DNA of 64,000 nucleotides. Origin: a virus. The notes below the pieces were generated by a model, which was given only the letters and a program-made list of their open reading frames with translations, was not told the origin of the DNA and made no database searches. The stretch's first letter is position 1. Each line of letters begins with the position of its first letter. Where the stretch lies: IMG/VR virus record IMGVR_UViG_3300032282_004772, one strand, 5' to 3'. The position numbers and the translations under genes were made by a program. This document shows positions 15,178 through 62,397 of the stretch, one piece after another.

Positions 15178-16857
15178 ATGAAAAATCTAGTAAACAAAAT
15201 TGAAAGAATAGAAAAAGAAATTATTAAATCAGAATCTAAGACTACCCAAAAATTTTTTCTTTCTGAAATGAAACGAATTGGTATTGAAAAATTACCTTAT
15301 TCGTTTGCATCCCTAAAAAGATTTATTGACCCTGAAACAATGGACTACCATTATAATAAACATTATAAGGGTTATGTTGAGAAACTAAACACCGCCCTAA
15401 ATAAGAGAAAATTTGGTGATTTAGATTTGGAACAAATTGTTAAATCGATAAGTAGATTTAATAAAACAATAAGAAATAATGCCGGTGGAGCTTACAATCA
15501 CGCTCTTTTTTGGAAGATGTTATCTCCAAAACCACAAAAACCTAAAGGTCAACTCTTAAGAAAAATTGAAAGTGTATTTGGAGGAGTTCCCGCATTTAAG
15601 AAAAAATTTGAAGAAGAGTGTAAAGAAAGATTTGGGTCGGGATGGTGTTGGTTAGTAATAACTAAAAACAATTCATTAAAAATTGTTTCGACTCCAAATC
15701 AAGATAATCCATTAATGAATGATGTTAAAGATGGGGGATACCCAATTTTAGGATTGGATTTATGGGAACACGCTTATTATTTGAAGTATCGAAACAAAAG
15801 AGATGAATATATTAAGAATTTTTGGGATGCGGTTAACTGGGAGTTTGTTGAGAAACTTTATTTAATGAAAGTGGAAACAAAGTTAACGGAAGAAGTTGTT
15901 TTAGAACAATTAATGAGAGATAATAATGACTTTCTTTTAATTGAACAACAAAATGAATCCCAAAGTTGTTCTTCTGAAGAAACAAAATTATTTAAAAGAT
16001 TATTGTTCCCCCCAACAAATTTATTAGAAAAATCAAAAGAGTATGGGGAATTTATAAAAGAATATACTGCAGGATGGATGGATGTTTTGAGAAAATCGTA
16101 TCCTGAAAATTGGAAAGAAAGAAATCAATTATTTCAAGGACATGAGGCCGGATTATATACTAAAGAAAATGTTAGGTCACTTTTAATGAACTTAACATCG
16201 TCTTATGTTGCGTTTTGTATTATTCACAAAGATATTAATCAATATCTAAAAAGTACAAACCAAAAAATAATCGAGTATGGAGATGACCCTAAAAAAAATC
16301 TATTGGAATTAAGAAGATTCTTTTCGGTTTTAGATGGTTTAAGAGCAACAATTTTTAAAAGAGGCGAACAATCAATAACTTTAAATAAAATAGGAAGAGT
16401 ATTAAAAAAATCAGATTGTTTAGGTAAGAGAAACGAACAAGCGTCAGAACAAATTATAAATCAAATTTTGGGTGCAAATACTTGTGAAATAAAATCAGGA
16501 GGTGGAATTAGTAATGATATGTATTCAGGAATTGATGCCATTCTTAATATTGAAGGAAAACGTTTAAAGGCTCAAATAAAACCTTTCACAAACGCATATA
16601 AAAAAGAATTTGACACTGAAGAATATTATATAGTTGAAGGGGCATCTAGTACAAAGGCCTACAAAACTGTGGATTTATTAATTTTTGTTAATGTAAAAAC
16701 TAAAAACGTGAAAATTTTTAATTCAAAAAACGTTAGAATAAATCAAGGAAATTATATTATACCATCAAATTATTTAGCTTATGATTTATTTGCGAAAGAA
16801 CCAATTGAATTAATTGATTGTAACAAATATTTATCAGAAAATATGATATGGGAATAA
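15178..16857 (+). CDS. Fe/Mn superoxide dismutase fused to a C-terminal domain of about 300 aa
   Basis: HYNKH, NHALFW, FGSGW.WL, NQD, DLWEHAYY; metal ligands intact; long extension after aa ~230. Confidence 0.9.
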   Translation: MKNLVNKIERIEKEIIKSESKTTQKFFLSEMKRIGIEKLPYSFASLKRFIDPETMDYHYNKHYKGYVEKLNTALNKRKFGDLDLEQIVKSISRFNKTIRNNAGGAYNHALFWKMLSPKPQKPKGQLLRKIESVFGGVPAFKKKFEEECKERFGSGWCWLVITKNNSLKIVSTPNQDNPLMNDVKDGGYPILGLDLWEHAYYLKYRNKRDEYIKNFWDAVNWEFVEKLYLMKVETKLTEEVVLEQLMRDNNDFLLIEQQNESQSCSSEETKLFKRLLFPPTNLLEKSKEYGEFIKEYTAGWMDVLRKSYPENWKERNQLFQGHEAGLYTKENVRSLLMNLTSSYVAFCIIHKDINQYLKSTNQKIIEYGDDPKKNLLELRRFFSVLDGLRATIFKRGEQSITLNKIGRVLKKSDCLGKRNEQASEQIINQILGANTCEIKSGGGISNDMYSGIDAILNIEGKRLKAQIKPFTNAYKKEFDTEEYYIVEGASSTKAYKTVDLLIFVNVKTKNVKIFNSKNVRINQGNYIIPSNYLAYDLFAKEPIELIDCNKYLSENMIWE

Positions 16858-23874: not shown

Positions 23875-24447
23875 TTAACAGTTATGTCTTGAGATTTCCA
23901 ACTCTTCGTTGAAATTTAATATTGTTGGCCATAAGTATTCGACCAAATAATTTGTGTTATTTATTATTTCATTTTTTGGTAAAGTCTCTCTTATTTTTTC
24001 ATAAAAACCTATTCCATTTTTTAAAATTAAGTTTTTGGAAACTATACACTGAGCGGAATTTATAAATTTTATAGGTAATTTATATGTTATTTGATTTTCT
24101 TCCGCATAATTAATAGTTTGTTTTAAAATATGCTCAACGTCTCTAACATAAGTAATACCTAACGGATAAAAATCTTTCTCAAAATTAAATTCATTAACTC
24201 TTTTTATAAAGTTAGGACAATGATAAAAAGGGTCATCTTGTGAAAAACAAATATAATCAGGTAAATTATAATAATTTTCTATAATATATGTAAGATAAAC
24301 AATAGTATCAAATCCAACATTTGGTAAGTTATTCTCAAATTTATGAGCATTTTTTGGATTTTTATTATAAACAACATAGGGGTGTTTTAGTTCTGAAACC
24401 CAATCTAAATTTTCCTTAAAATGACATATAACAACTTTTAATTCCAT
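23875..24447 (-). CDS. DUF3431-like putative glycosyltransferase
   Basis: V.CHFKENL.W, LPNVG, YL.YII.NY..LP....F.Q.DPF.H. Confidence 0.7.
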   Translation of the reverse strand: MELKVVICHFKENLDWVSELKHPYVVYNKNPKNAHKFENNLPNVGFDTIVYLTYIIENYYNLPDYICFSQDDPFYHCPNFIKRVNEFNFEKDFYPLGITYVRDVEHILKQTINYAEENQITYKLPIKFINSAQCIVSKNLILKNGIGFYEKIRETLPKNEIINNTNYLVEYLWPTILNFNEELEISRHNC

Positions 24448-24448
24448 A

Positions 24449-25705
24449 TTATAATCTTCCTTCTATTTTATCACACCATCCTTTTGATTCCGAATGTGGC
24501 CAAACTATCCAATATGCGGGTTTTTCTGCGGTTTGGAATTCTCTCCAAATTTTACAATATCCGTCTCTATCGTTTTTCATTCTTGCAATTTCTGATTTGT
24601 CCACATCTTTTCTAAATAATGTTTCACCATTTTCTTTGTGGAAAGCCACTGCCCAAAAATCATAATCTTGTAATGGAACTTGATTAAATGAAACATCAAT
24701 ACAGTGTTTAAATATTTTTGCAAAACTATTCATCCATTCTTCTTCGGAATTATAGTCATACGGATTTGGAGGATACTTTTTATCTAATGTATATTGCTGT
24801 ACCGCTCTTTGGCTAAATAATAGCCCCGCATATTTTTCGTAATCTCTTAGTGTTCTTTCACTACCAAAACCAAATTGTCCAAATTCTTCGGGATTGTATA
24901 CTTCACCATCCATACTGAACAATTTTCTATTTTTTAAATGAGAGTTTTTGTTTTTTTCTCCCCATGTCTTGTCGTCATCCCACTGTTTAGTTCTTCCTTT
25001 TCTTGTATATTCATGATACACTACAATTTTATGTGGATGGAATAAATCATACCCATGAGTATACGCTCTTGCAGCAATCGAAATCTCTTCTCCATGAAAA
25101 TAAAATTCAGGGTCGTGTTGAACTTCTTTAGCAAATTGGCCTAAAGTAAAACAAAAATGAGCCGAATAAAATCTTGATGTTATTGGTTCAGTTAATTCTT
25201 GCCATCCAGGAATTGTTTCGGGTAAAAAGAACACCGCTCCTTCAGGAATGAATCTATCAAACGCCATTCTCCAAGGAACAGAAACTCTCCCTTTTGGGTC
25301 ATTATCAGGGTCAAAAGAAGACACATAACTTGTTAACAATGGTTTTTTATATCCTTTATTTTGTAGATGTTTAATCATCTCAATTAAAGTCTCGTCCCAA
25401 TCTTTTTCAAACCTCATATGAGAATCAATTTGCATTGTATACTCTTCCCCATCATATAATTGTTGAGTCAAGTTTCTTGCCCAACAAACACCCAAAGAAT
25501 CTTGGTGTGGTATATTTAAAATTCTAAATCTTTTATCATTTTCATATTCAGATAAATCATCAAATTTATCATCAGGATTAAATTGTCTCGCAATTGAAAA
25601 GACCAAATTATTTGGATTTTTTGATTGTTCTAACGCATCTTTTATTGTTGGAATTAATTGTGGGTCTCTATACGACGCTATTTGAATAAAAATTTTCATA
25701 GACAT
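24449..25705 (-). CDS. GT60 / Gnt1-like polypeptide alpha-GlcNAc transferase (Pfam GlcNAc-type)
   Basis: IF.QIASYRD, G.CWAR, QIDSHMRF, F.GEE....R.YT.GYD, YH.Y motifs. Confidence 0.85.
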   Translation of the reverse strand: MSMKIFIQIASYRDPQLIPTIKDALEQSKNPNNLVFSIARQFNPDDKFDDLSEYENDKRFRILNIPHQDSLGVCWARNLTQQLYDGEEYTMQIDSHMRFEKDWDETLIEMIKHLQNKGYKKPLLTSYVSSFDPDNDPKGRVSVPWRMAFDRFIPEGAVFFLPETIPGWQELTEPITSRFYSAHFCFTLGQFAKEVQHDPEFYFHGEEISIAARAYTHGYDLFHPHKIVVYHEYTRKGRTKQWDDDKTWGEKNKNSHLKNRKLFSMDGEVYNPEEFGQFGFGSERTLRDYEKYAGLLFSQRAVQQYTLDKKYPPNPYDYNSEEEWMNSFAKIFKHCIDVSFNQVPLQDYDFWAVAFHKENGETLFRKDVDKSEIARMKNDRDGYCKIWREFQTAEKPAYWIVWPHSESKGWCDKIEGRL

Positions 25706-25750
25706 TATTTTATGTCTATAAAATAATAAAAAAAAATCTAATATAAATAA

Positions 25751-25775
25751 AAATCCCTCTTTTTGAGAGGGATTT
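25751..25775. terminator. Intrinsic terminator hairpin after the ubiquitin-like gene
   Basis: AAATCCCTCT-TTTTG-AGAGGGATTT flanked by A and T tracts. Confidence 0.8.
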
Positions 25776-25781
25776 GTTTTT

Positions 25782-26027
25782 TTATTTTAAAGTTAAAACG
25801 TATTCTATTTTACTATCTACATTAACTAAATCATCATCTTTCATTTCTTTGTTTTTAATATAAACAATTTCACTTAACACTTCATTTGGATATTGTATTT
25901 TGTTTTTTATTTCTGATTTAATATCTGAAACTTTAGTAGTATCTGTTATATTAAAGTTAGTTGAGTATTGACTTAACACTGTTTTCGTAGTGCTTTTTTG
26001 TACTTTAATTTCTATTTCTTTCATCAT
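25782..26027 (-). CDS. Ubiquitin-like (beta-grasp) protein lacking C-terminal GG
   Basis: 81 aa; TKVSDIKSEIKNK..YP, Y.KNKEMKDD and terminal IEYVLTLK align by eye with ubiquitin TIENVKAKIQDK..IP, FAGKQLEDG, LHLVLRLR. Confidence 0.55.
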   Translation of the reverse strand: MMKEIEIKVQKSTTKTVLSQYSTNFNITDTTKVSDIKSEIKNKIQYPNEVLSEIVYIKNKEMKDDDLVNVDSKIEYVLTLK

Positions 26028-26051
26028 ATTTTTAGTTTTTTATTTTTAATT

Positions 26052-28133
26052 TTAATCCCACCAAACATAATCATTAAATGTATAGTAAGAATCATAATCG
26101 GTCAATTCTACTGACTCTATGGTAGTGTCAGATATTAAGTTTATGTAGTATTTGTTATTTTCATTTATTATACCAACAAAATTGTCTCCACATGACTGGT
26201 TACTATCATAGCTTGAAAACTCTGTCGTTGCGCTATTGATTAAGTTAATATCTAAATCATATAGATAATAATTTGTTAATCCACTAATATCGTCAACAAA
26301 CGTAAATAAAAATTTACTATCTCCAAGTCTAAAATCAAAGTCTGTATTGCCCGGCATTGTTTGTAAGCTAGTTATACCTGAAGAAGATAAAATTCTATAT
26401 TCTTTAGATGTATAATCAGCAATTAACATTAATCCTGGAACTTTAAAATTAGGTCTAAAAATATAAGTTGGATAATAAGTCCAATTATAATTAGTTCCAC
26501 TAAAAATACCTGTTTGGAAAGAACTTGAGGTATTATTAATAACATAAGAATCTCCACTGTAATTTCTAAACAAATAGACATCTCCAGCGTATGATTCTTG
26601 TCTTGAATATGACGAGGTAAGACCTATTCCATTAACAACTTCACCTAATGTACCATCTTCTAAAATATGAATTAAGCTCATTGATGTATAAGTCGAGGTT
26701 TCATCAAAAAATGACCCAACAAATTTATTACCACATGTCGCCATTGTTGATATATATGGAGAATTAGACATTAATAAATTAGTACTATTATAAGTAATTC
26801 CTGAACTTGTTATACTCAATATTGACAATTCCCCATCTCCATTATCACACGCGAAAAATAAACTATCATTTAATGCCATGTAGGTATTTATTGTTTTATC
26901 TGCAACGCCACTATTTTGAAATTCGTATGTTTGTATCGTTGTATCCCCACTTAACATGTATATAATATCACAATAATCTACAACTGGACCGACTGAGTTA
27001 CTTGTCGGCTGATTATATAAAACAATTGAAAAAGCGTCAGAACCACCCGGATTAGGATATAAATTAGCATTAGTATCCACGGAGATGTCAGGATAATTTA
27101 ACCTATTATGTGTCATTGTGTTTAAAACGTCAGTATTACCATTGTATTGTATTATTGCGTAATCAACACTTGAATCTGAAGAATTCCAAAGTACTGTTAA
27201 AAATTTATTATTACCATATCTGTAATTATTGTAATTGGTCAAGTTTCCAAAAGTAGTTAAATCAACTGATTGTAAAAGATTTCCAGTTGACGCATCGTAT
27301 ACTTCTAATAAATCATATACATTTAAAGAATAATTATATTTTAAAAATTGTATAAAAGTTCCATCAAAATATGTGTTTACCCCAACACTTTCATTTGCAT
27401 AATCATAAGTTTGACCAATTTGTGTTAATACAGTCCCACTTGTTGTATAATAATTAACAGTATTCGCGGTATAATTGTCAATTCCAATGATAACGTTATC
27501 CGTAGATGTCACTCCGTCCCATCCATCAACAATATATACATATTGATATGTGGTATCCGCGGTTAATGTATAAACTTCAGCACCATTAAAATATTTTAAA
27601 ATACCGTTAAAATAATCGGCGAAATAAGTCCATTTTCCTGCAAGTAGTCCATAATCATAATCACAGTCACAATTAGTTTGGAAACTTTCTAAAATATTAC
27701 CAGCGGCGTCTGTAAATATAAACCACTGTAAATCACATGTATTTTCATTATTAAAATGAAGACCATAACCTTTATTTGTTATTGGGAATATATCACTAAT
27801 GTACCAACCGGTTCTATCAACATTTAAATCATAAACAACTGCAGTTAAATCATTAAAGTTTAATACCGCTTCTCCATTATTATTATTTGTGGTTAATTTA
27901 GAAATAAACACAAAACTTGTTAAGTTGGTTGCCGGAGGATTTATTGTTAATTCATACGTATAATCATATAATGGTACATATATTTGATATACTCCATAAG
28001 GGTATGATGTTATGTTATTAAATGGAATCGTTTGAGTTCCTAGGTCAATTGTTCCTCCTGTTGTTGGTAAGAAGGTTACATTAGCTGTTTGACCACTTAA
28101 ATTGTTACTTAATATTCTTGCGCCTATTGCCAT
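26052..28133 (-). CDS. Putative virion fibre/appendage protein (shared N-terminal module plus beta-rich body)
   Basis: Acidic, Tyr/Asn/Thr/Ser-rich; N-terminal ~65 aa paralogous to ORFs at 28199 and 29372. Confidence 0.5.
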   Translation of the reverse strand: MAIGARILSNNLSGQTANVTFLPTTGGTIDLGTQTIPFNNITSYPYGVYQIYVPLYDYTYELTINPPATNLTSFVFISKLTTNNNNGEAVLNFNDLTAVVYDLNVDRTGWYISDIFPITNKGYGLHFNNENTCDLQWFIFTDAAGNILESFQTNCDCDYDYGLLAGKWTYFADYFNGILKYFNGAEVYTLTADTTYQYVYIVDGWDGVTSTDNVIIGIDNYTANTVNYYTTSGTVLTQIGQTYDYANESVGVNTYFDGTFIQFLKYNYSLNVYDLLEVYDASTGNLLQSVDLTTFGNLTNYNNYRYGNNKFLTVLWNSSDSSVDYAIIQYNGNTDVLNTMTHNRLNYPDISVDTNANLYPNPGGSDAFSIVLYNQPTSNSVGPVVDYCDIIYMLSGDTTIQTYEFQNSGVADKTINTYMALNDSLFFACDNGDGELSILSITSSGITYNSTNLLMSNSPYISTMATCGNKFVGSFFDETSTYTSMSLIHILEDGTLGEVVNGIGLTSSYSRQESYAGDVYLFRNYSGDSYVINNTSSSFQTGIFSGTNYNWTYYPTYIFRPNFKVPGLMLIADYTSKEYRILSSSGITSLQTMPGNTDFDFRLGDSKFLFTFVDDISGLTNYYLYDLDINLINSATTEFSSYDSNQSCGDNFVGIINENNKYYINLISDTTIESVELTDYDSYYTFNDYVWWD

Positions 28134-28198
28134 TTTGTTTTTTTATTTATAAATATCATTAACTTTTTTATTTTTTAAAATCTTATTTAATTTTATTT

Positions 28199-28678
28199 TT
28201 AATATAAAATAGACGCGTATATATCGTTATTTAATATTATTGTAAAAGTTAAATCATCGATTATGGGATTTGGAACTAATACATTATAATAAAAATCATT
28301 ATTAGGAATTATATTAAACGTTAAATCGTTAATTATTGGATTTGGTATTAATATGTTGTAATAAAAATCATTGTTAGGGATTATATTAAACGTTAAATCA
28401 TTAATTGGGTTTGGTAATAATAATTGATAATAAAAATCGTTATCAGGAATTAATATATAAGTTAAGTCATTTGATGGAGGTGTAGGGGTAAAACGAATCT
28501 GGCAACTAGTGCCATATTCAGGAAAAAATAAAACATATAACCCGTATATATAATCAGATGTATATGTGTAAGGTAAAGTTACTAACCCAACATTTACAGT
28601 GCCTCCAGTCTGTGGATAAAATGTTATGTTAGCATTTTTTCCACTATAATTATTTGTGTTTATTATAACTGAAGACAT
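28199..28678 (-). CDS. Putative virion protein: shared N-terminal module plus four 22-23 aa repeats
   Basis: NDLT(F/Y)xIIPNNDFYYxxLxPNPI repeats. Confidence 0.6.
   Translation of the reverse strand: MSSVIINTNNYSGKNANITFYPQTGGTVNVGLVTLPYTYTSDYIYGLYVLFFPEYGTSCQIRFTPTPPSNDLTYILIPDNDFYYQLLLPNPINDLTFNIIPNNDFYYNILIPNPIINDLTFNIIPNNDFYYNVLVPNPIIDDLTFTIILNNDIYASILY
28205..28472 (-). repeat. Tandem 66-69 bp coding repeats
   Basis: Recurrent ataataaaaatc.tt.ttagg.attatattaaacgttaaatc on the + strand. Confidence 0.85.
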
Positions 28679-28706
28679 ATTGACATGTTAGTATGATGTA
28701 TTTTAT

Positions 28707-56577: not shown

Positions 56578-59500
56578 ATGGGAAATTTAAAAAAAGATAG
56601 CAATAATTTTTGGTCAGGAAAAACCAAATCTTTTATTGAAACGATTTTTGGTGGAAAAACCATCGAAGAAATAAAATCTATGTCGATAGAAGATAGAAAA
56701 TCTCTTTTAATAAAAAAAGAAACTCCTACGACAGGACATACTTCAAGTATGAGCGGTCGTACATCATTTGATGTTCCAAAAAGAATGTCAAATGATAAAC
56801 ACAGGAGTGTAAGTCTTTCGGGAAAAACAACTTCTAATGTTAAACCAAAATCGGCACCAGAACCATTAAGGATAAAACCTTCAAATCTAAAAAAAGAGGC
56901 TCACGAATATAGAAAATCCACTCCGACAAAATATAGTGGTTCTACCTCAAATAATATAAAAAGTTTAAACACACTTAGTTTTAATAACAATATAAACTCA
57001 AACCCAAATTCAGTGGCAGGAACTGTAGATTATAGTTTTCCTGCAGGAGTAAATTTTATTGGCTCAATTTATGGATTTGATGGTGAGGTATATGCAATTG
57101 AAATACAAAAAGACGGTAAAATATTAGTAGGGGGTGATTTTGGTACTTACTATAGTTATGATTATCCTGAAGGTTATAGTGCAGCGTATTTAATCAGATT
57201 GAACTCTGATGGAACTGTTGATGATACATTCTCGACAGGTAATATAAATGGAGATGTTTTCACAATTGCAATACAACCGGATGGTAAAATATTATTAGGT
57301 GGTAATTTTGGTTATTATGATGGATTAAATCCTAATAATATTATAAGAATTAACCCTGATGGTAGTCCTGATTATTCATTTGTGTATGGTTCAGGATTTA
57401 ACGCACCGGTTAATGTAATTACATTACAGTCTGATGGTAAAATATTAGTTGGTGGTATCTTTGGTCAATATAATAGTAATACCGCATATTATTTGATTAG
57501 ATTAAACTCTAATGGTTCAATTGATAATTCATTCGTATATGGTAACGATGTCGTATCGTTTAATGGCGCGGTTAATGACATCAAAGTACAATCAGATGGA
57601 AAAATATTAGTTGTTGGTGAATTTAGTACTTATGCAGAGAATAGTTCAAATTATATAATTAGATTAAATAGCGATGGTACAAGAGATACTACATTTGTTA
57701 TTGGTACAGGATTTAGTAACATAGTATATTCAATTGATTTACAATCAGACGGAAAAATAATTGTTGGTGGTGATTTTTACGATTATGGTTATTATAACGG
57801 AAATTTATGTAATTCCATCGTTAGATTAAATACTGACGGTTCCTTAGATAGTACATTTGGATATGGTGTTTATGGAGGAGTTTATAAAGTTAAAGTTCAA
57901 TCTGATGATAAAATTTTAATTGGGGGATATTTTTATGATTATTACCCATATTTTAATGATTGGACCTCATTTAATGTTGACAAATTAATAAGATTTAATC
58001 CTGACACAACTTTTGATTATAACTTTTATTATAAAGACATAATTAATTATGATACATATGCGATAAATTTACAATCAGATGGTAAAATATTAGTTGGGGG
58101 AAGTTTTTATAATGATGGGGATGCTTCGACATACCCTTTAAATCGTTTTGGTAGATTAAACAATACTATCTCTTTATACAAATATGTTTATTCAATACTT
58201 AGTGATTGTTATGAAAACCCAAAAACATATTCAATGGGTTCAAATACTCTTCTAACTGAAGATGATTACTATAATGAGTGTGTTGTTTCGGCAACTGAAT
58301 TAGGGGGTGCGTCTAATACCATTACAGGATATATTATATTAGATGGAGACAATCCTTTATTCACAAAATCAAAACCTGATTGTGAATTTGTTAAAAAATA
58401 TAATAGTTGTTCTGAATCTATTTTAGATAACTACAAATATGTTGTTGCGTATTCATTACTTGAAAATGAATGGGATTATTTTACAGTCGATAGCAGATAT
58501 GAAGTTGGAGACATATTCTTCATTAACGAAAAATTTGAGGCAGATGAATTTGAAGTTAGGTCTTGTTTTAGAATAACAGAAATAATAACAAATGATTATG
58601 GTAATTATTACCAACCAATAAAATACATTCCTTATAAAACTTGTGAGGAATGCGTTAGAGCAAATGGAGTTCCTTATCGATTATATTCTTACACAAATGA
58701 CTCTACACAAAAAGTTATAAGTTATCAATATTTTAACTATGATGGATATGTTAATGACTTTTTTGTAAAAACTAGCTTTTTATTAACACCAAGTTCTTAT
58801 GATTATATTAATTTCGTAAGTGATAGTCCGGCATTTCCAAACATGTATGAATATGGATTAGTTCCAAAAATTTATAGTACGGTATCAATAGATAGTAATA
58901 ATAATTTTTTTGGTACTGCGGCAGAATTAATGTCTAAAAAAGGAAGTGGTGAGTATGACTACCGATTTAATCCATATTACGGTTCTTACCAAGGATTTAA
59001 CGATTATGTGTTTTCAACATATGAATTAAAAAATGGTCAAATTTTAGTTGGTGGAACTTTTGATTATTATAATAACGAACCATTAAATTCATATGGAATT
59101 GCAAAATTAAATGTAGATGGATTATTGGATAATAAATTTCAACCAAATTTATTTGGTGTTAATTCTATTTATACATTTGCAGAACAATCAGATGGAAAAA
59201 TTTTAATTGGTGGCAATTTTGAAGGGGCAGGTAATTTAGAATCATATTATTTAGTTAGAGTAGATAAAAATGGTATTTTAGATTCAGAATTCACCAATAA
59301 CATAATGAAAGATGGAGGATTAGATGGTTCTGTACATAAAATCGTGATTTTACCTTCAGGAAAAATTTTACTTGCAGGTGAATTCTACCAATTAGGTAAT
59401 GAAGTGGTCTATGGATTTGTAATGTTAAATTCTGACGGCACAATAAATCAAAAATTCTTACAAACTAAAGTACAACCTGATTGGTATTCTTACGAAATTT

Positions 59501-61209
59501 GTTTAGACTCAAACGGTAAAATACTTTTAGGAGGTGGATTTCAGTATGTGTATAACCCAAAAGAAGATAGTAATTATGAAATAACAAGTATTATTAGATT
59601 AAATTCTGATGGTAGTCTTGATACCGATTTTAGTTTTGGAGCGGGGTTATACAATGATGAGTTTGAAACTTTTGTAACAAGAATAGTAAAAGACAATAAT
59701 GGTAAAATCTTAGTTTCAGGAGCGTTTAATTATTATAATGGTGACTATGTGGGATTTGGTCTTGTAAGGATAAACCCAGATGGAACTTGGGATGATAGTT
59801 TATCTATCGGAAATGGATTTAACTATCAACCTGTATATTCTGTAGTAGTCCAACCTGATGATAAAATTATTGCGGGAGGGTTCTTTAGTTATTATGCGGC
59901 TTATGACGGATATAACGCACCATATATATTTAGATTGAATAATGATGGTACCCCTGATTTAACGTTTTTCCCTGTTAAATTTGGGTCTGGTTTTAATGAC
60001 CCAGTAACAACTTTAAACACATCAAAAGACGGTGAATTAATTGTTGGTGGATTTTTTACTTCTTATTTGTGGTTTGCGTTTGGAAGTGACGGAGCGGTTG
60101 TGAAATTATTCATAGCAAATGATTATGATTCTTATGATTTTAACACATGTTCAACATCTGAATCTTCTTTAATTTATTTACCAAGTAGTGTAAACACATC
60201 AGATGATTTTTTAAAAGGTAATGTCAATAATTCTCCTTCAGTTTGCGGACAATATGGTAATGTTGTTTCAGGTTCAAGTGTTGAATCAGGTAGCAATTAT
60301 TTTAGTGGTGATGATTATTTAGTTGTTTCCGACTCAACAGATGAAGACTTTTTATTAGCAGATGAAGATTTTACAATAGAATGGTATCAAAACTATAATT
60401 ATGATGGACAAAGTCCTATTGTATTCTCAAAAGGTGTTGAGAATGATGTTGACATTATGTTTTCAATAGAAAATGGTAATAGGATATATCTTTGGATTAA
60501 AAATTATTATTATGATTTTGGTTATTTTTATGGTTTAGATTATTGGAATCATTTTGCAATAACCAGAAACAATAATATTATAAGATTATTTAAAAATGGA
60601 ACTGAATTGAAAGCTATTGGTTCAAGTAACGATAATTTTTGGGCAGGACAAGATATATTATTCCAAGGAAGTTTAGTAAGCACGGGTTATCCTCTCATAA
60701 TCGGTAATGCAGGTTCTTCAAGTAGTAATAGACAATATTATGGTGCGATAACAAACTTTAGATGGATTAAAGGAACTTGTTTATATGACGCTAATTTTGA
60801 TGTTTCTACCTCACCTTTGAAAAACTTACCTAATACAAAATTATTATTACTTTCTAAAAATGAAACAGATTTATTGTTAGACTCTAGTTCAGAAAATAAA
60901 ACAGTTACCCAAGGAGGTTCAGGACCTACTGATTGGAGTGATGATTCTCCTTTTGTAGGAGGTAATGCTCTCTACTCTTTATTTAATTCTGATGCGACAA
61001 TAACATATTCATCTTGTAATTCATGTTCAGAAACTGAATATTTAAACGTTACAACATTCGCATTTAATGGAGTTAAATCTGTGGTTGAATCAACCCAAAT
61101 GAAATGGTCTACAATACAAAATGTATTACTTAATGGACCGTATTTTAACACCACAATGGCAGGTGAAGTAAGTCCATATATTTATGGAATAATGAATTAT
61201 TACAGATAA
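56578..61209 (+). CDS. Large putative receptor-binding/appendage protein: two blocks of delta-60-type beta-propeller repeats plus C-terminal LamG-like domain
   Basis: About 14 Q.DGKIL(V/L)GG.F...(I/L)RLN.DG..D repeats; DFTIEW, WNHFA..R, F.NG, G.I.NFR motifs. Confidence 0.8.
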   Translation: MGNLKKDSNNFWSGKTKSFIETIFGGKTIEEIKSMSIEDRKSLLIKKETPTTGHTSSMSGRTSFDVPKRMSNDKHRSVSLSGKTTSNVKPKSAPEPLRIKPSNLKKEAHEYRKSTPTKYSGSTSNNIKSLNTLSFNNNINSNPNSVAGTVDYSFPAGVNFIGSIYGFDGEVYAIEIQKDGKILVGGDFGTYYSYDYPEGYSAAYLIRLNSDGTVDDTFSTGNINGDVFTIAIQPDGKILLGGNFGYYDGLNPNNIIRINPDGSPDYSFVYGSGFNAPVNVITLQSDGKILVGGIFGQYNSNTAYYLIRLNSNGSIDNSFVYGNDVVSFNGAVNDIKVQSDGKILVVGEFSTYAENSSNYIIRLNSDGTRDTTFVIGTGFSNIVYSIDLQSDGKIIVGGDFYDYGYYNGNLCNSIVRLNTDGSLDSTFGYGVYGGVYKVKVQSDDKILIGGYFYDYYPYFNDWTSFNVDKLIRFNPDTTFDYNFYYKDIINYDTYAINLQSDGKILVGGSFYNDGDASTYPLNRFGRLNNTISLYKYVYSILSDCYENPKTYSMGSNTLLTEDDYYNECVVSATELGGASNTITGYIILDGDNPLFTKSKPDCEFVKKYNSCSESILDNYKYVVAYSLLENEWDYFTVDSRYEVGDIFFINEKFEADEFEVRSCFRITEIITNDYGNYYQPIKYIPYKTCEECVRANGVPYRLYSYTNDSTQKVISYQYFNYDGYVNDFFVKTSFLLTPSSYDYINFVSDSPAFPNMYEYGLVPKIYSTVSIDSNNNFFGTAAELMSKKGSGEYDYRFNPYYGSYQGFNDYVFSTYELKNGQILVGGTFDYYNNEPLNSYGIAKLNVDGLLDNKFQPNLFGVNSIYTFAEQSDGKILIGGNFEGAGNLESYYLVRVDKNGILDSEFTNNIMKDGGLDGSVHKIVILPSGKILLAGEFYQLGNEVVYGFVMLNSDGTINQKFLQTKVQPDWYSYEICLDSNGKILLGGGFQYVYNPKEDSNYEITSIIRLNSDGSLDTDFSFGAGLYNDEFETFVTRIVKDNNGKILVSGAFNYYNGDYVGFGLVRINPDGTWDDSLSIGNGFNYQPVYSVVVQPDDKIIAGGFFSYYAAYDGYNAPYIFRLNNDGTPDLTFFPVKFGSGFNDPVTTLNTSKDGELIVGGFFTSYLWFAFGSDGAVVKLFIANDYDSYDFNTCSTSESSLIYLPSSVNTSDDFLKGNVNNSPSVCGQYGNVVSGSSVESGSNYFSGDDYLVVSDSTDEDFLLADEDFTIEWYQNYNYDGQSPIVFSKGVENDVDIMFSIENGNRIYLWIKNYYYDFGYFYGLDYWNHFAITRNNNIIRLFKNGTELKAIGSSNDNFWAGQDILFQGSLVSTGYPLIIGNAGSSSSNRQYYGAITNFRWIKGTCLYDANFDVSTSPLKNLPNTKLLLLSKNETDLLLDSSSENKTVTQGGSGPTDWSDDSPFVGGNALYSLFNSDATITYSSCNSCSETEYLNVTTFAFNGVKSVVESTQMKWSTIQNVLLNGPYFNTTMAGEVSPYIYGIMNYYR

Positions 61210-61947: not shown

Positions 61948-62397
61948 TTACTTACTTTCTTCGTTTACTTCTTCGTCTATGGATAAAAGTTCCAATTCAA
62001 AAGTCAAATTTTTACCTGCCATAGGATGATTGTGGTCAAGTTTAGCCGTCTCTTCTCCAATTTCCAATACTTTTACCAAAAACATTCCTTGAGGTCCCGA
62101 ACCTTGTAACGTCTGACCTACTTCAAGGTCAGCTGGTAGTTGTGATTTAGGTACGTCAACAATCGCTTCAGGATTAATTTCTCCGTATCCTTCAGATGGA
62201 TTAAGAGTGATTGTCTTTTTTTCTCCTACGGACATATCAATTAATCCGTTTTCAAAACCTTTAATTAATTGTCCTTTACCTAAAGTTGCCTTTAATGGTT
62301 CTCTACCTTCGTTTAAAGAACTATCGAAAACTGTTCCGTCTTCAAATTTACCTGTGTAGTGAACAGATATTGTATCACCGTTTTTAACTTTGCTCAT
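61948..62397 (-). CDS. FKBP-type peptidyl-prolyl isomerase (SlyD/FkpB-like, no His-rich tail)
   Basis: VHYTG...DG.VFDSS, G..I.GFE..L, P...YG, D.NHP.AG..L.F. Confidence 0.93.
   Translation of the reverse strand: MSKVKNGDTISVHYTGKFEDGTVFDSSLNEGREPLKATLGKGQLIKGFENGLIDMSVGEKKTITLNPSEGYGEINPEAIVDVPKSQLPADLEVGQTLQGSGPQGMFLVKVLEIGEETAKLDHNHPMAGKNLTFELELLSIDEEVNEESK

What the first reader, a model, noticed from the sequence alone, without database searches (positions are those of the whole stretch)
25782..26027. Ubiquitin-like protein without the diglycine tail, between fibre genes and the GT operon
Seen: 81 aa with ubiquitin-like spacing of strands and helix, ending ...IEYVLTLK-stop where ubiquitin has LHLVLRLRGG. 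No E1, E2 or JAB gene is in the window. Established: some bacterial antiphage systems (Bil-type) conjugate Ubls to phage tail proteins through a C-terminal glycine. Inference: a non-conjugatable decoy or inhibitor of host Ubl conjugation, or a beta-grasp virion adaptor.
Basis: inference. Interest (0 to 1): 0.72.

Follow-up and report, generated by a model that had tools for sequence, protein, structure and literature searches.

The report
Ubiquitin-fold partner of phage appendage protein
A small phage gene really does encode a ubiquitin-shaped protein without the reactive tail. It always travels as a two-gene unit with a large, probably host-recognition protein, so it is most likely that protein's helper or adaptor and not a decoy against bacterial ubiquitin-type immunity.

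Summary
The 81-aa ORF (25782-26027, minus strand) is real. About 25 metagenomic relatives exist. An alignment-based AlphaFold model (pLDDT 86.5) superposes on ubiquitin residues 1-74 (Z 8.2-8.5). The chain stops where ubiquitin's Gly-Gly would begin. No member has a conserved C-terminal Gly, and Pfam finds no E1, E2 or JAB among 50 window proteins.

Context points to its role. In 11 of 11 gene pairs from 9 lineages of an uncultured ~180-200 kb myovirus-like clade, the Ubl gene lies 15-45 nt downstream of a ~690-740 aa propeller-like appendage gene. Flanking genes vary. One contig carries three tandem [appendage + Ubl] cassettes. Divergence of the two partners is correlated (Mantel r 0.79). A promoter-like box precedes the pair and a terminator follows it. 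In one sister lineage the Ubl is fused to the papain-type (C1) peptidase that this phage carries on a 1086-aa protein. A co-fold gave weak support only.

Best reading (0.55): a non-conjugated Ubl that is the cognate assembly or adaptor subunit of the appendage. This is an analogue, not a homologue, of lambda gpI. The anti-Bil decoy reading has no support (~0.05).

By sequence, the scan noted this family only in this genome. A conceptually similar Ubl-fold adhesin anchor was noted on other DNA (e1-5388958, untested here).

The parts
25782..26027 (-). Ubl gene: 81-aa (or 80-aa from ATG 26024) ubiquitin-fold protein ending in Lys, with no Gly-Gly
   Evidence: fold; family
26052..28133 (-). Cognate partner gene: 693-aa appendage protein with a ~65-aa N-terminal anchor module shared with paralogues, followed by a propeller-like body
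   Evidence: Directly upstream of the Ubl in 11 of 11 pairs. Anchor shared with the 159-aa and 566-aa proteins. The propeller-like shape rests only on the ESM Atlas's own low-confidence model (pLDDT 0.58, TM 0.44/0.53 to BamB/PQQ propellers)
25751..25775 (-). Intrinsic terminator-like hairpin (10-11 bp stem, T-run) 6 nt after the Ubl stop codon; it ends the transcription unit
   Evidence: 3 sites found in the region, 0.2 expected in shuffles. Equivalent hairpins follow the Ubl in L007, L011 and L012
28141..28157 (-). Promoter-like box GATATTTATAAATAAAA about 8 nt upstream of the 693-aa gene's ATG. The Ubl gene has no copy of its own (24-nt gap)
   Evidence: The same box precedes the homologous gene in L002, L004, L007 and L011, and a TATTTAT core precedes many structural genes of the window. 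Promoter function is inferred, not shown
31075..31758 (-). Papain-type (Peptidase_C1) domain at the C-terminus of the 1086-aa protein. It is linked to the Ubl only through a fusion in a sister phage (P0012, L002:10001-10912)
   Evidence: PF00112 E 7e-6; phrog_16701 E 8e-52. 64% identity to the peptidase part of the Ubl-peptidase fusion. Nearest solved relative is 3ois, then cathepsins

Best explanation
The 81-aa protein is a free-standing ubiquitin-fold (beta-grasp) protein that is not conjugated. It is made late from one short transcription unit together with the 693-aa appendage protein encoded just upstream. It acts through non-covalent binding to that protein. Either it is a dedicated assembly helper, taking the gene position that tail-fibre chaperones usually hold, or it is a small accessory or adaptor subunit that stays on the appendage. 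Its C-terminus is free and exposed. In one sister lineage it carries the papain-type peptidase that this phage mounts on the end of a 1086-aa protein, which favours the stably bound docking-subunit version. Shown here: the fold, the missing Gly-Gly, the invariant gene pairing, the pairwise duplication, the fusion and the operon signals. Inferred: physical binding, presence in the virion, and late timing.
For: (1) The Ubl fold is confident. (2) The Ubl follows the appendage gene with a gap of 15-45 nt in all 11 pairs from 9 lineages: the window, L002, L004, L005, L007/L013, L011, L012, L014 (three pairs) and L015. Meanwhile the flanks differ: a GT operon, DNA polymerase or unrelated genes. (3) L014 carries three tandem [~730-aa + Ubl] cassettes. 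All six genes hit the family HMMs (Ubl E 1e-30, 2e-16, 3e-12; large protein E 1e-79, 5e-78, 7e-60). In L014 the large proteins match only from profile position ~75-90 onward, so the Ubl travels with the body and not with the N-terminal anchor. (4) Pairwise identities of the two partners are correlated (Mantel r 0.79, p 2e-4). This holds for the same-genome paralogues too: 40.5/40.4, 31.1/25.0 and 30.6/32.4 %. (5) Operon signals: a conserved promoter-like box before the large gene, none before the Ubl, and a terminator after the Ubl in four lineages. (6) The C-terminus is permissive. Most members end at a Lys, some carry 11-26 aa tails, and one carries a 220-aa peptidase. That peptidase domain is otherwise the C-terminal payload of a large protein, in the window and in the 203-kb record G001 that holds L008. 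(7) Co-fold of the 693-aa protein with the Ubl gave weak support. Score 0.54 (runs 0.00, 0.54, 0.59) against a best control of 0.01. That mark was reached by 58 of 80 solved complexes and 2 of 110 mismatched pairs. At 0.60 or under it was reached by only 7 of those 80 solved complexes and by both mismatches that passed. The runs agree in at least 0% of contacts and the partner's pLDDT is at least 62.
Against: No direct evidence of binding, of presence in virions or of timing. The co-fold pass is weak, one of three runs scored 0.00 and no interface was reported. Correlated divergence is expected for any two linked genes and does not prove contact. The partner's propeller fold and its role as a virion appendage are themselves inferred: there is no Pfam or PHROG hit, no PDB hit and only a low-confidence Atlas model. 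No known tail-fibre chaperone or adaptor family matches the Ubl. Chaperone and stable subunit cannot be told apart with these data.
Confidence: 0.55

Rival explanations
1. The Ubl works with the papain-type C1 peptidase. It could be a pro-domain, regulator or docking domain of the protease, or be processed by it. This would parallel lambda gpI (Ubl) with gpK (JAB + papain-fold NlpC/P60), and eukaryotic deubiquitinases that carry Ubl domains.
For: P0012 (303 aa, identical in three independent contigs) fuses the Ubl to an intact C1 peptidase through a conserved ~50-aa linker. The window has the same peptidase (64% identity) in the same gene cluster. Iyer et al. 2006 proposed a Ubl and papain-fold/JAB functional unit in phage tail assembly (PMC1779556).
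Against: Only one of nine lineages has the fusion. Elsewhere the peptidase sits on another protein 5-13 kb away or was not found within the fragments held (L011 and L012 records, both incomplete). The invariant neighbour is the appendage gene, not the peptidase. There is no Ubl-like domain in front of the peptidase in the 1086-aa protein (hhalign probability 0.1%). The cleavage-site Gly typical of processed Ubls is missing.
Confidence: 0.15
2. An anti-defence decoy: a non-conjugatable ubiquitin mimic that occupies or inhibits the host's Bil, Bub or CBASS-type E1/E2 enzymes, which tag phage tail proteins.
For: A ubiquitin-type fold without the reactive Gly. Bil systems conjugate a Ubl through its C-terminal Gly to a phage tail fibre (Hor et al. 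preprint, 10.1101/2023.09.04.556158). The gene sits beside host-recognition genes that could be targets.
Against: No similarity to any defence-system model, including Ubl components (PADLOC; only chance-level hits). Structural neighbours are generic Ubl domains. The gene is co-transcribed and co-duplicated with a structural gene rather than lying in an early or accessory region. In one contig there are three diverged copies, each behind its own appendage paralogue, which a decoy aimed at a single host enzyme does not need. The C-terminus is variable and accepts large fusions.
Confidence: 0.05
3. The Ubl is itself the ligand-binding tip. It would be a beta-grasp adhesin or glycan-binding cap carried by the appendage, like the separately encoded adhesin at the tip of some T-even long tail fibres (own knowledge).
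For: The gene position matches that of fibre-tip adhesins. Some beta-grasp domains bind glycans, and staphylococcal superantigen-like proteins appear among the structural matches (Z 7.0-7.2, 79 residues). The family diverges quickly (31-44% identity).
Against: The SSL matches rank below about 30 Ubl domains and Z~7 is background level for that search. No ligand-binding motif is known or conserved. Only K37 and Y76 are invariant, and D64 nearly so.
Confidence: 0.1

Closest known systems
Phage lambda/T1 tail assembly protein I (gpI, TAPI) with gpK (JAB + NlpC/P60) and gpJ (Iyer, Burroughs & Aravind 2006, PMC1779556)
   Same: A ubiquitin-like beta-grasp protein encoded in the tail or host-recognition gene cluster of a tailed phage. 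It lies beside the host-specificity protein and is linked in some genomes by fusion to a papain-fold peptidase. No E1 or E2 is involved.
   Different: No sequence relationship: no Pfam hit to the gpI family among 15 members at E<=1. TAPI has a conserved Gly at the end of the beta-grasp, a Gly-rich linker and a TAPI-C domain, and this family has none of these. The partner is a propeller-like appendage, not gpJ. The peptidase is C1-type, not JAB/NlpC. The phage is a ~180-kb myovirus-like type, not a siphovirus.
Tail-fibre assembly chaperones and tip proteins encoded just downstream of the fibre gene (lambda Tfa, Mu U, P2 G, T4 gp38; own knowledge)
   Same: A small gene immediately 3' of a receptor-binding gene, co-transcribed with it and inherited and duplicated together with it as a cognate pair.
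   Different: Unrelated fold and sequence: no Pfam or PHROG hit. Chaperone activity is untested.
Conjugated bacterial Ubls of antiphage systems (BilA of Bil; Bub-type Ubls)
   Same: Ubiquitin-type beta-grasp fold, and a biological setting of phage tail proteins.
   Different: Those Ubls need a C-terminal Gly that enters the E1 site and are encoded with E1, E2 and DUB genes. Here there is no Gly, no such genes and no PADLOC match. The gene is on the phage, not in the host.
Non-conjugated Ubl domains fused to papain-fold proteases (e.g. USP7 and USP14 Ubl domains; own knowledge)
   Same: The L002-lineage protein has a Ubl-then-papain-fold-peptidase architecture. Weak Pfam USP7_C2 hit (E 0.064) and Z 8.5-8.6 to a USP7 Ubl domain.
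   Different: The peptidase is cathepsin/xylellain-like C1, not a USP, UCH or OTU type. The resemblance is architectural only, and the Pfam hit is below threshold.

Membership tests
Ubiquitin-like beta-grasp fold (superfamily level) | b-b-a-b-b(-b) beta-grasp topology superposable on ubiquitin | tested here: met
   AF2 model pLDDT 86.5 with strands 2-11, 17-26, 50-57, 60-62, 74-80 and helix 33-43. Z 8.2-9.7, rmsd ~2 A over 67-76 residues to ubiquitin, ISG15 and kindlin F0. Foldseek probability 1.00
Ubiquitin family (Pfam PF00240) by sequence | Score above the Pfam gathering threshold | tested here: not met
   The window protein has no PF00240 hit. Six of 15 relatives give sub-threshold hits, best E 9.4e-4. 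The PDB profile search finds only ISG15 at E~0.1
Conjugatable Ubl (ubiquitin, NEDD8, ThiS/MoaD, BilA type) | Conserved C-terminal Gly or Gly-Gly on a flexible tail, free or exposed by processing | tested here: not met
   The chain ends at K81, aligned to ubiquitin R74. Of 18 aligned members, 14 end at this column (13 with Lys, one with Glu plus one further Lys) and none has a conserved Gly. There is no in-frame extension after the stop, where the terminator hairpin lies
Conjugatable Ubl (ubiquitin, NEDD8, ThiS/MoaD, BilA type) | E1 (ThiF), E2 (UBC) or JAB/DUB gene in the neighbourhood | tested here: not met
   None at E<=1e-3 in 50 window proteins. None among the precomputed Pfam hits of neighbours in L013-L016. 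The rest of the ~177-kb genome was not available
Lambda tail assembly protein I (TAPI) | Sequence match to the gpI family; Gly-rich linker and TAPI-C domain after the Ubl | tested here: not met
   No such Pfam hit among 15 members at E<=1. There is no C-terminal domain: the protein is 81 aa
Lambda tail assembly protein I (TAPI) | Flanked by TAPK (JAB + NlpC/P60) and TAPJ | tested here: not met
   The neighbours are a propeller-like appendage gene and a GT operon. The only analogy is a papain-fold C1 peptidase fused in one lineage
Bil/Bub defence Ubl | Match to defence-system models | tested here: not met
   PADLOC scan of 18 members gave only scattered chance-level hits to unrelated models. 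PADLOC 2023 may lack some Ubl models, so this is weak
Tail-fibre assembly chaperone (functional class) | Small gene directly 3' of the receptor-binding gene, co-inherited as a cognate pair | tested here: met
   11 of 11 pairs, a triple tandem duplication, and correlated divergence
Tail-fibre assembly chaperone (functional class) | Needed for folding or oligomerisation of the fibre; binds it | tested here: inconclusive
   Only a weak co-fold pass: 0.54 against a best control of 0.01, with one of three runs at 0.00.

The most novel reading that the evidence does not exclude
The Ubl is a plug-in ubiquitin-fold docking module of the virion. It binds the propeller appendage non-covalently and can carry payloads such as the C1 peptidase. 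In its boldest form, Ubl and peptidase together protect the host-recognition apparatus from host Ubl-conjugating immunity: the Ubl occupies the surface or enzyme that Bil-like systems use, and the papain-fold peptidase removes tags.
Probability: 0.06. Interest if true: 0.85.

Novelty: new variant of a known kind. Interest (0 to 1): 0.42.

Why it matters
Ubiquitin-fold proteins in phage tail modules have been known since 2006 only from the lambda gpI family, and their role is still untested. This second, unrelated family has no processing site. It is strictly paired with a receptor-binding-type protein and is occasionally used as a carrier for a protease. That pattern suggests the ubiquitin fold has been recruited more than once as a small non-covalent assembly or adaptor piece of phage host-recognition organs. 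It also gives a practical caution. With Bil-type defences now known, a phage Ubl without Gly-Gly is readily read as a decoy, and here gene context argues for a structural role. The pair is small enough (693 + 81 aa) to test by co-expression.

Tried and rejected
- Megablast of 24000-29000 and tblastn of the Ubl against 50,697 GenBank phage records found no match. The polymerase reaches only ~24% identity to Salinibacter and Nostoc phages, so there is no cultured relative.
- PHROGs gave no family for the Ubl or the 693-aa protein.
- The word-based search with the single Ubl sequence found only the protein itself. A 'longer' search with the alignment found no further fusions, which the tool itself rates as weak evidence.
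- Two long phmmer hits are not Ubl fusions. P0015 is a repetitive artefact-like sequence. P0011 (1934 aa, 25 short stretches) was not examined and is assumed to be low-complexity.
- The search for related loci with the Ubl alignment failed because no stretch was conserved enough. The 693-aa protein was used instead.
- hhalign of the Ubl profile against residues 700-900 of the 1086-aa protein found no hidden Ubl in front of its peptidase.
- The PADLOC scan gave nothing meaningful.
- A profile of the 693-aa family against PDB sequences found nothing.
- No whole genome is held for the window, so the rest of the ~177-kb phage could not be searched for E1, E2 or JAB.
- Sequencing runs: no RNA holder is listed.
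- Both structure-prediction jobs went to the Ubl, so the 693-aa protein and the peptidase were not modelled here. The single complex job went to 693-aa + Ubl, so Ubl + peptidase was not co-folded.

Full report
**1.

The minus-strand ORF 25782-26027 encodes 81 aa ending ...IEYVLTLK. Translation may start at the second ATG (26024): relatives begin MKK and a database copy has 80 aa.

The window is AT-rich DNA (~30% GC) of a myovirus-like phage. It encodes a tail sheath, tail tube, baseplate hub protein and family-B DNA polymerase. The contig is about 177 kb.

No cultured relative exists. Neither the DNA nor the protein matches GenBank phages. The polymerase is only ~24% identical to those of Salinibacter and Nostoc phages. 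Only 3 of 52 genes have a Shine-Dalgarno-like motif.

**2. The fold is ubiquitin-type.**

- A single-sequence AlphaFold2 model already gave b-b-a-b-b-b at pLDDT 79.
- With 15 relatives as alignment, all five models reach pLDDT 85-86.5.
- Foldseek against the PDB returns only ubiquitin, NEDD8, SUMO or UBL entries at probability 1.00.
- VIA-align against 48,161 representative chains gives Z 9.7 to kindlin F0 and Z 8-8.5 to USP7-Ubl, HOIL-1L UBL, ISG15, Fubi and ubiquitin.
- A second look gives 86 chains with Z>=8. Model residues 1-81 align to ubiquitin 1-74 at rmsd ~1.9 A.

Sequence-level support is weak but points the same way:
- Six of 15 members give sub-threshold PF00240 hits, with others to UBXL, DIX, Crinkler-N, USP7_C2 and Rad60-SLD.
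- The family profile finds ISG15 at E~0.1 in the PDB.
- ESM Atlas neighbours are unnamed viral clusters and Ubl families.

**3. It is a family, and none of its members can be conjugated in the canonical way.**

An exhaustive phmmer search gave 14 true relatives of 79-107 aa and one 303-aa fusion. A profile search added more. All come from metagenomes and are unnamed.

In the 18-sequence alignment only M1, K37 and Y76 are invariant, and D64 nearly so. Most members end at a Lys at the end of the last strand. A few have 11-26 aa tails of unrelated sequence. None has a conserved Gly.

Pfam finds no E1, E2 or JAB among 50 window proteins or among the annotated neighbours of relatives. PADLOC models give only chance-level hits.

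**4. Context: an invariant two-gene unit.**

I collected the surroundings of relatives with the look-up of encoding contigs. I also searched IMG/VR with the upstream 693-aa protein.

In every case the Ubl gene lies 15-45 nt downstream of a homologue of the 693-aa protein (26-55% identity). That makes 11 pairs in 9 lineages.

The flanks are not conserved. Depending on the phage, the pair is followed by:
- the glycosyltransferase operon (this window);
- the DNA polymerase gene (L011, L015);
- an 855-aa gene (L007, L013);
- a convergent gene (L012).

The strongest case is contig L014. It has three tandem cassettes: 740 aa + 106 aa, 733 aa + 107 aa, and 727 aa + 69 aa. All six proteins hit the two family profiles. 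There the large proteins match only from profile position ~75-90 onward. So the Ubl goes with the body of the large protein and not with its N-terminal anchor.

Pairwise identities of the two partners are correlated (Mantel r 0.79, p 2e-4). This includes the same-genome paralogues at 40.5/40.4, 31.1/25.0 and 30.6/32.4 %. Linked genes are expected to show this. It demonstrates co-inheritance and co-duplication, not contact.

**5. Transcription signals.**

A box GATATTTATAAATAAAA lies about 8 nt before the start of the 693-aa gene (28141-28157). It recurs before its homologues in L002, L004, L007 and L011. A TATTTAT core precedes many structural genes of the window.

The 24-nt gap before the Ubl has no such box. 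Six nucleotides after the Ubl stop lies a strong terminator-like hairpin (25751-25775; 3 sites found in the region against 0.2 expected). Equivalent hairpins follow the Ubl in L007, L011 and L012.

The pair thus looks like a self-contained late-type operon. Promoter function and timing are inferred.

**6. The partner protein.**

The 693-aa protein has no Pfam, PHROG or PDB sequence match. Its first ~65 residues are shared with the 159-aa and 566-aa proteins next door and with several proteins in related phages. The 566-aa paralogue weakly matches a PHROG of virion structural proteins.

The ESM Atlas's own model is of low confidence (pLDDT 0.58). It resembles BamB/PQQ-type beta-propellers at TM 0.44/0.53.

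I therefore call it a propeller-like appendage protein with a shared anchor. "Fibre" is not established.

**7. The peptidase link.**

In the L002 lineage (identical in three independent contigs, one of 183 kb) the Ubl continues through a ~50-aa linker into an intact papain-type peptidase. The Gln, Cys, His and Asn motifs are all present.

The same domain (64% identity) forms residues 860-1086 of the window's 1086-aa protein (PF00112, phrog_16701). Its nearest solved relatives are 3ois, deposited as a cysteine protease, and cathepsins.

In L002 the homologue of the 1086-aa protein lacks the peptidase. In the 203-kb record that holds L008 the peptidase is again at the end of a long ORF, about 13 kb from the Ubl.

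So one payload domain sits either on a large protein or on the Ubl. The simplest reading is that both are carriers that place it in the same structure, which favours a stably bound Ubl. It also keeps alive a rival in which the Ubl works with the peptidase. No Ubl-like domain is hidden in front of the peptidase in the 1086-aa protein.

**8. Co-fold.**

The 693-aa family (7 rows) was co-folded with the Ubl family (18 rows). The verdict was weak support.

- Score 0.54 (runs 0.00, 0.54, 0.59) against a best control of 0.01.
- The mark was reached by 58 of 80 solved complexes and 2 of 110 mismatched pairs.
- At 0.60 or under it was reached by only 7 of those 80 solved complexes and by both mismatches that passed.
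- The runs agree in at least 0% of contacts, the partner's pLDDT is at least 62, and no interface was reported.

Given the strong prior from gene context this nudges the odds up a little. It is not proof.

**9. Comparison with what is known.**

The nearest precedent is lambda/T1 gpI (TAPI). It is a Ubl in the tail-tip assembly cluster, flanked by gpK (JAB + papain-fold NlpC/P60) and the host-specificity protein gpJ. [quoted passage not shown] 2006, PMC1779556).

The present family works in a similar setting but fails every membership feature of TAPI. There is no sequence match, no Gly, no TAPI-C domain and no JAB.

By gene position and cognate duplication it behaves like tail-fibre assembly proteins (own knowledge), with an unrelated fold.

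Bil systems need the Ubl's C-terminal Gly. [quoted passage not shown] Nothing here ties this Ubl to such systems beyond the fold.

**10. Verdict.**

- Best explanation (0.55): a non-conjugated ubiquitin-fold protein that is the cognate assembly or adaptor subunit of a propeller-like host-recognition appendage.
- It is a new, sequence-unrelated variant of the known theme of a Ubl in a phage tail module.
- Interest is moderate.

Earlier scan notes on this genome gave leads that I re-tested: the shared N-terminal module, the papain-like domain and the TATTTAT motif. A note on another genome (e1-5388958) reached a similar adaptor reading for a different Ubl module. I did not test it and do not count it as evidence.

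Noticed in passing
L014:3204-10767: Three tandem cassettes of a ~730-aa propeller-like protein, each followed by a small Ubl (106, 107 and 69 aa as called). The third Ubl looks N-terminally short and may use an upstream non-ATG start in the 45-nt gap.
   Followed up: partly
window 26052-31072 and L002:10922-11185: A ~65-aa N-terminal module is shared by the 693-, 159- and 566-aa proteins. In L002 an 87-aa protein consists of little more than this module. It looks like a common docking anchor with swappable bodies.
   Followed up: partly
window 15178-16857 (+): A 559-aa protein holds a complete Fe/Mn superoxide dismutase (PF00081 + PF02777, E 1e-21 and 6e-39) within its first ~230 residues, with an unassigned remainder. 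It is conserved next to a T4 gp13-like gene in related phages (L015, 512 aa).
   Followed up: no
window 61948-62397 (-): Phage-encoded FKBP-type peptidyl-prolyl isomerase (PF00254, E 4e-24).
   Followed up: no
window 56578-61209 (+): A 1543-aa protein with nine DUF5122 beta-propeller repeats (E 4e-120) plus a weak (E 1e-5, below threshold) Laminin_G_3 match. It is a second, unrelated propeller-type putative surface protein in the same phage.
   Followed up: no
G003:C1:28087-28729 (loci L018, L019): In the 67-kb IMG/VR record that holds L007, the C1 peptidase match is split between two frames (residues 13-184 and 181-226). This is either a frameshift or an assembly error at the end of the large ORF.
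   Followed up: no
window, upstream of about 12 genes (e.g. 28141-28157, 34336-34385): A TATTTAT(A) core lies 10-20 nt before the start codons of many structural-type genes on both strands, and Shine-Dalgarno motifs are nearly absent (3 of 52). This suggests a phage late promoter and a host with little SD use.
   Followed up: partly
window 35948-36361 (+): A 137-aa protein with a borderline WYL-domain hit (E 3e-4, just under threshold). It lies in a block of five small genes conserved at 56-70% identity in the L002 phage.
   Followed up: no
L014:15814-16260 and L015:15964-16240: Related phage contigs carry an SmpB-like gene with a NUDIX gene beside it (L014) and a SET-domain gene (L015), according to precomputed Pfam hits.
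   Followed up: no
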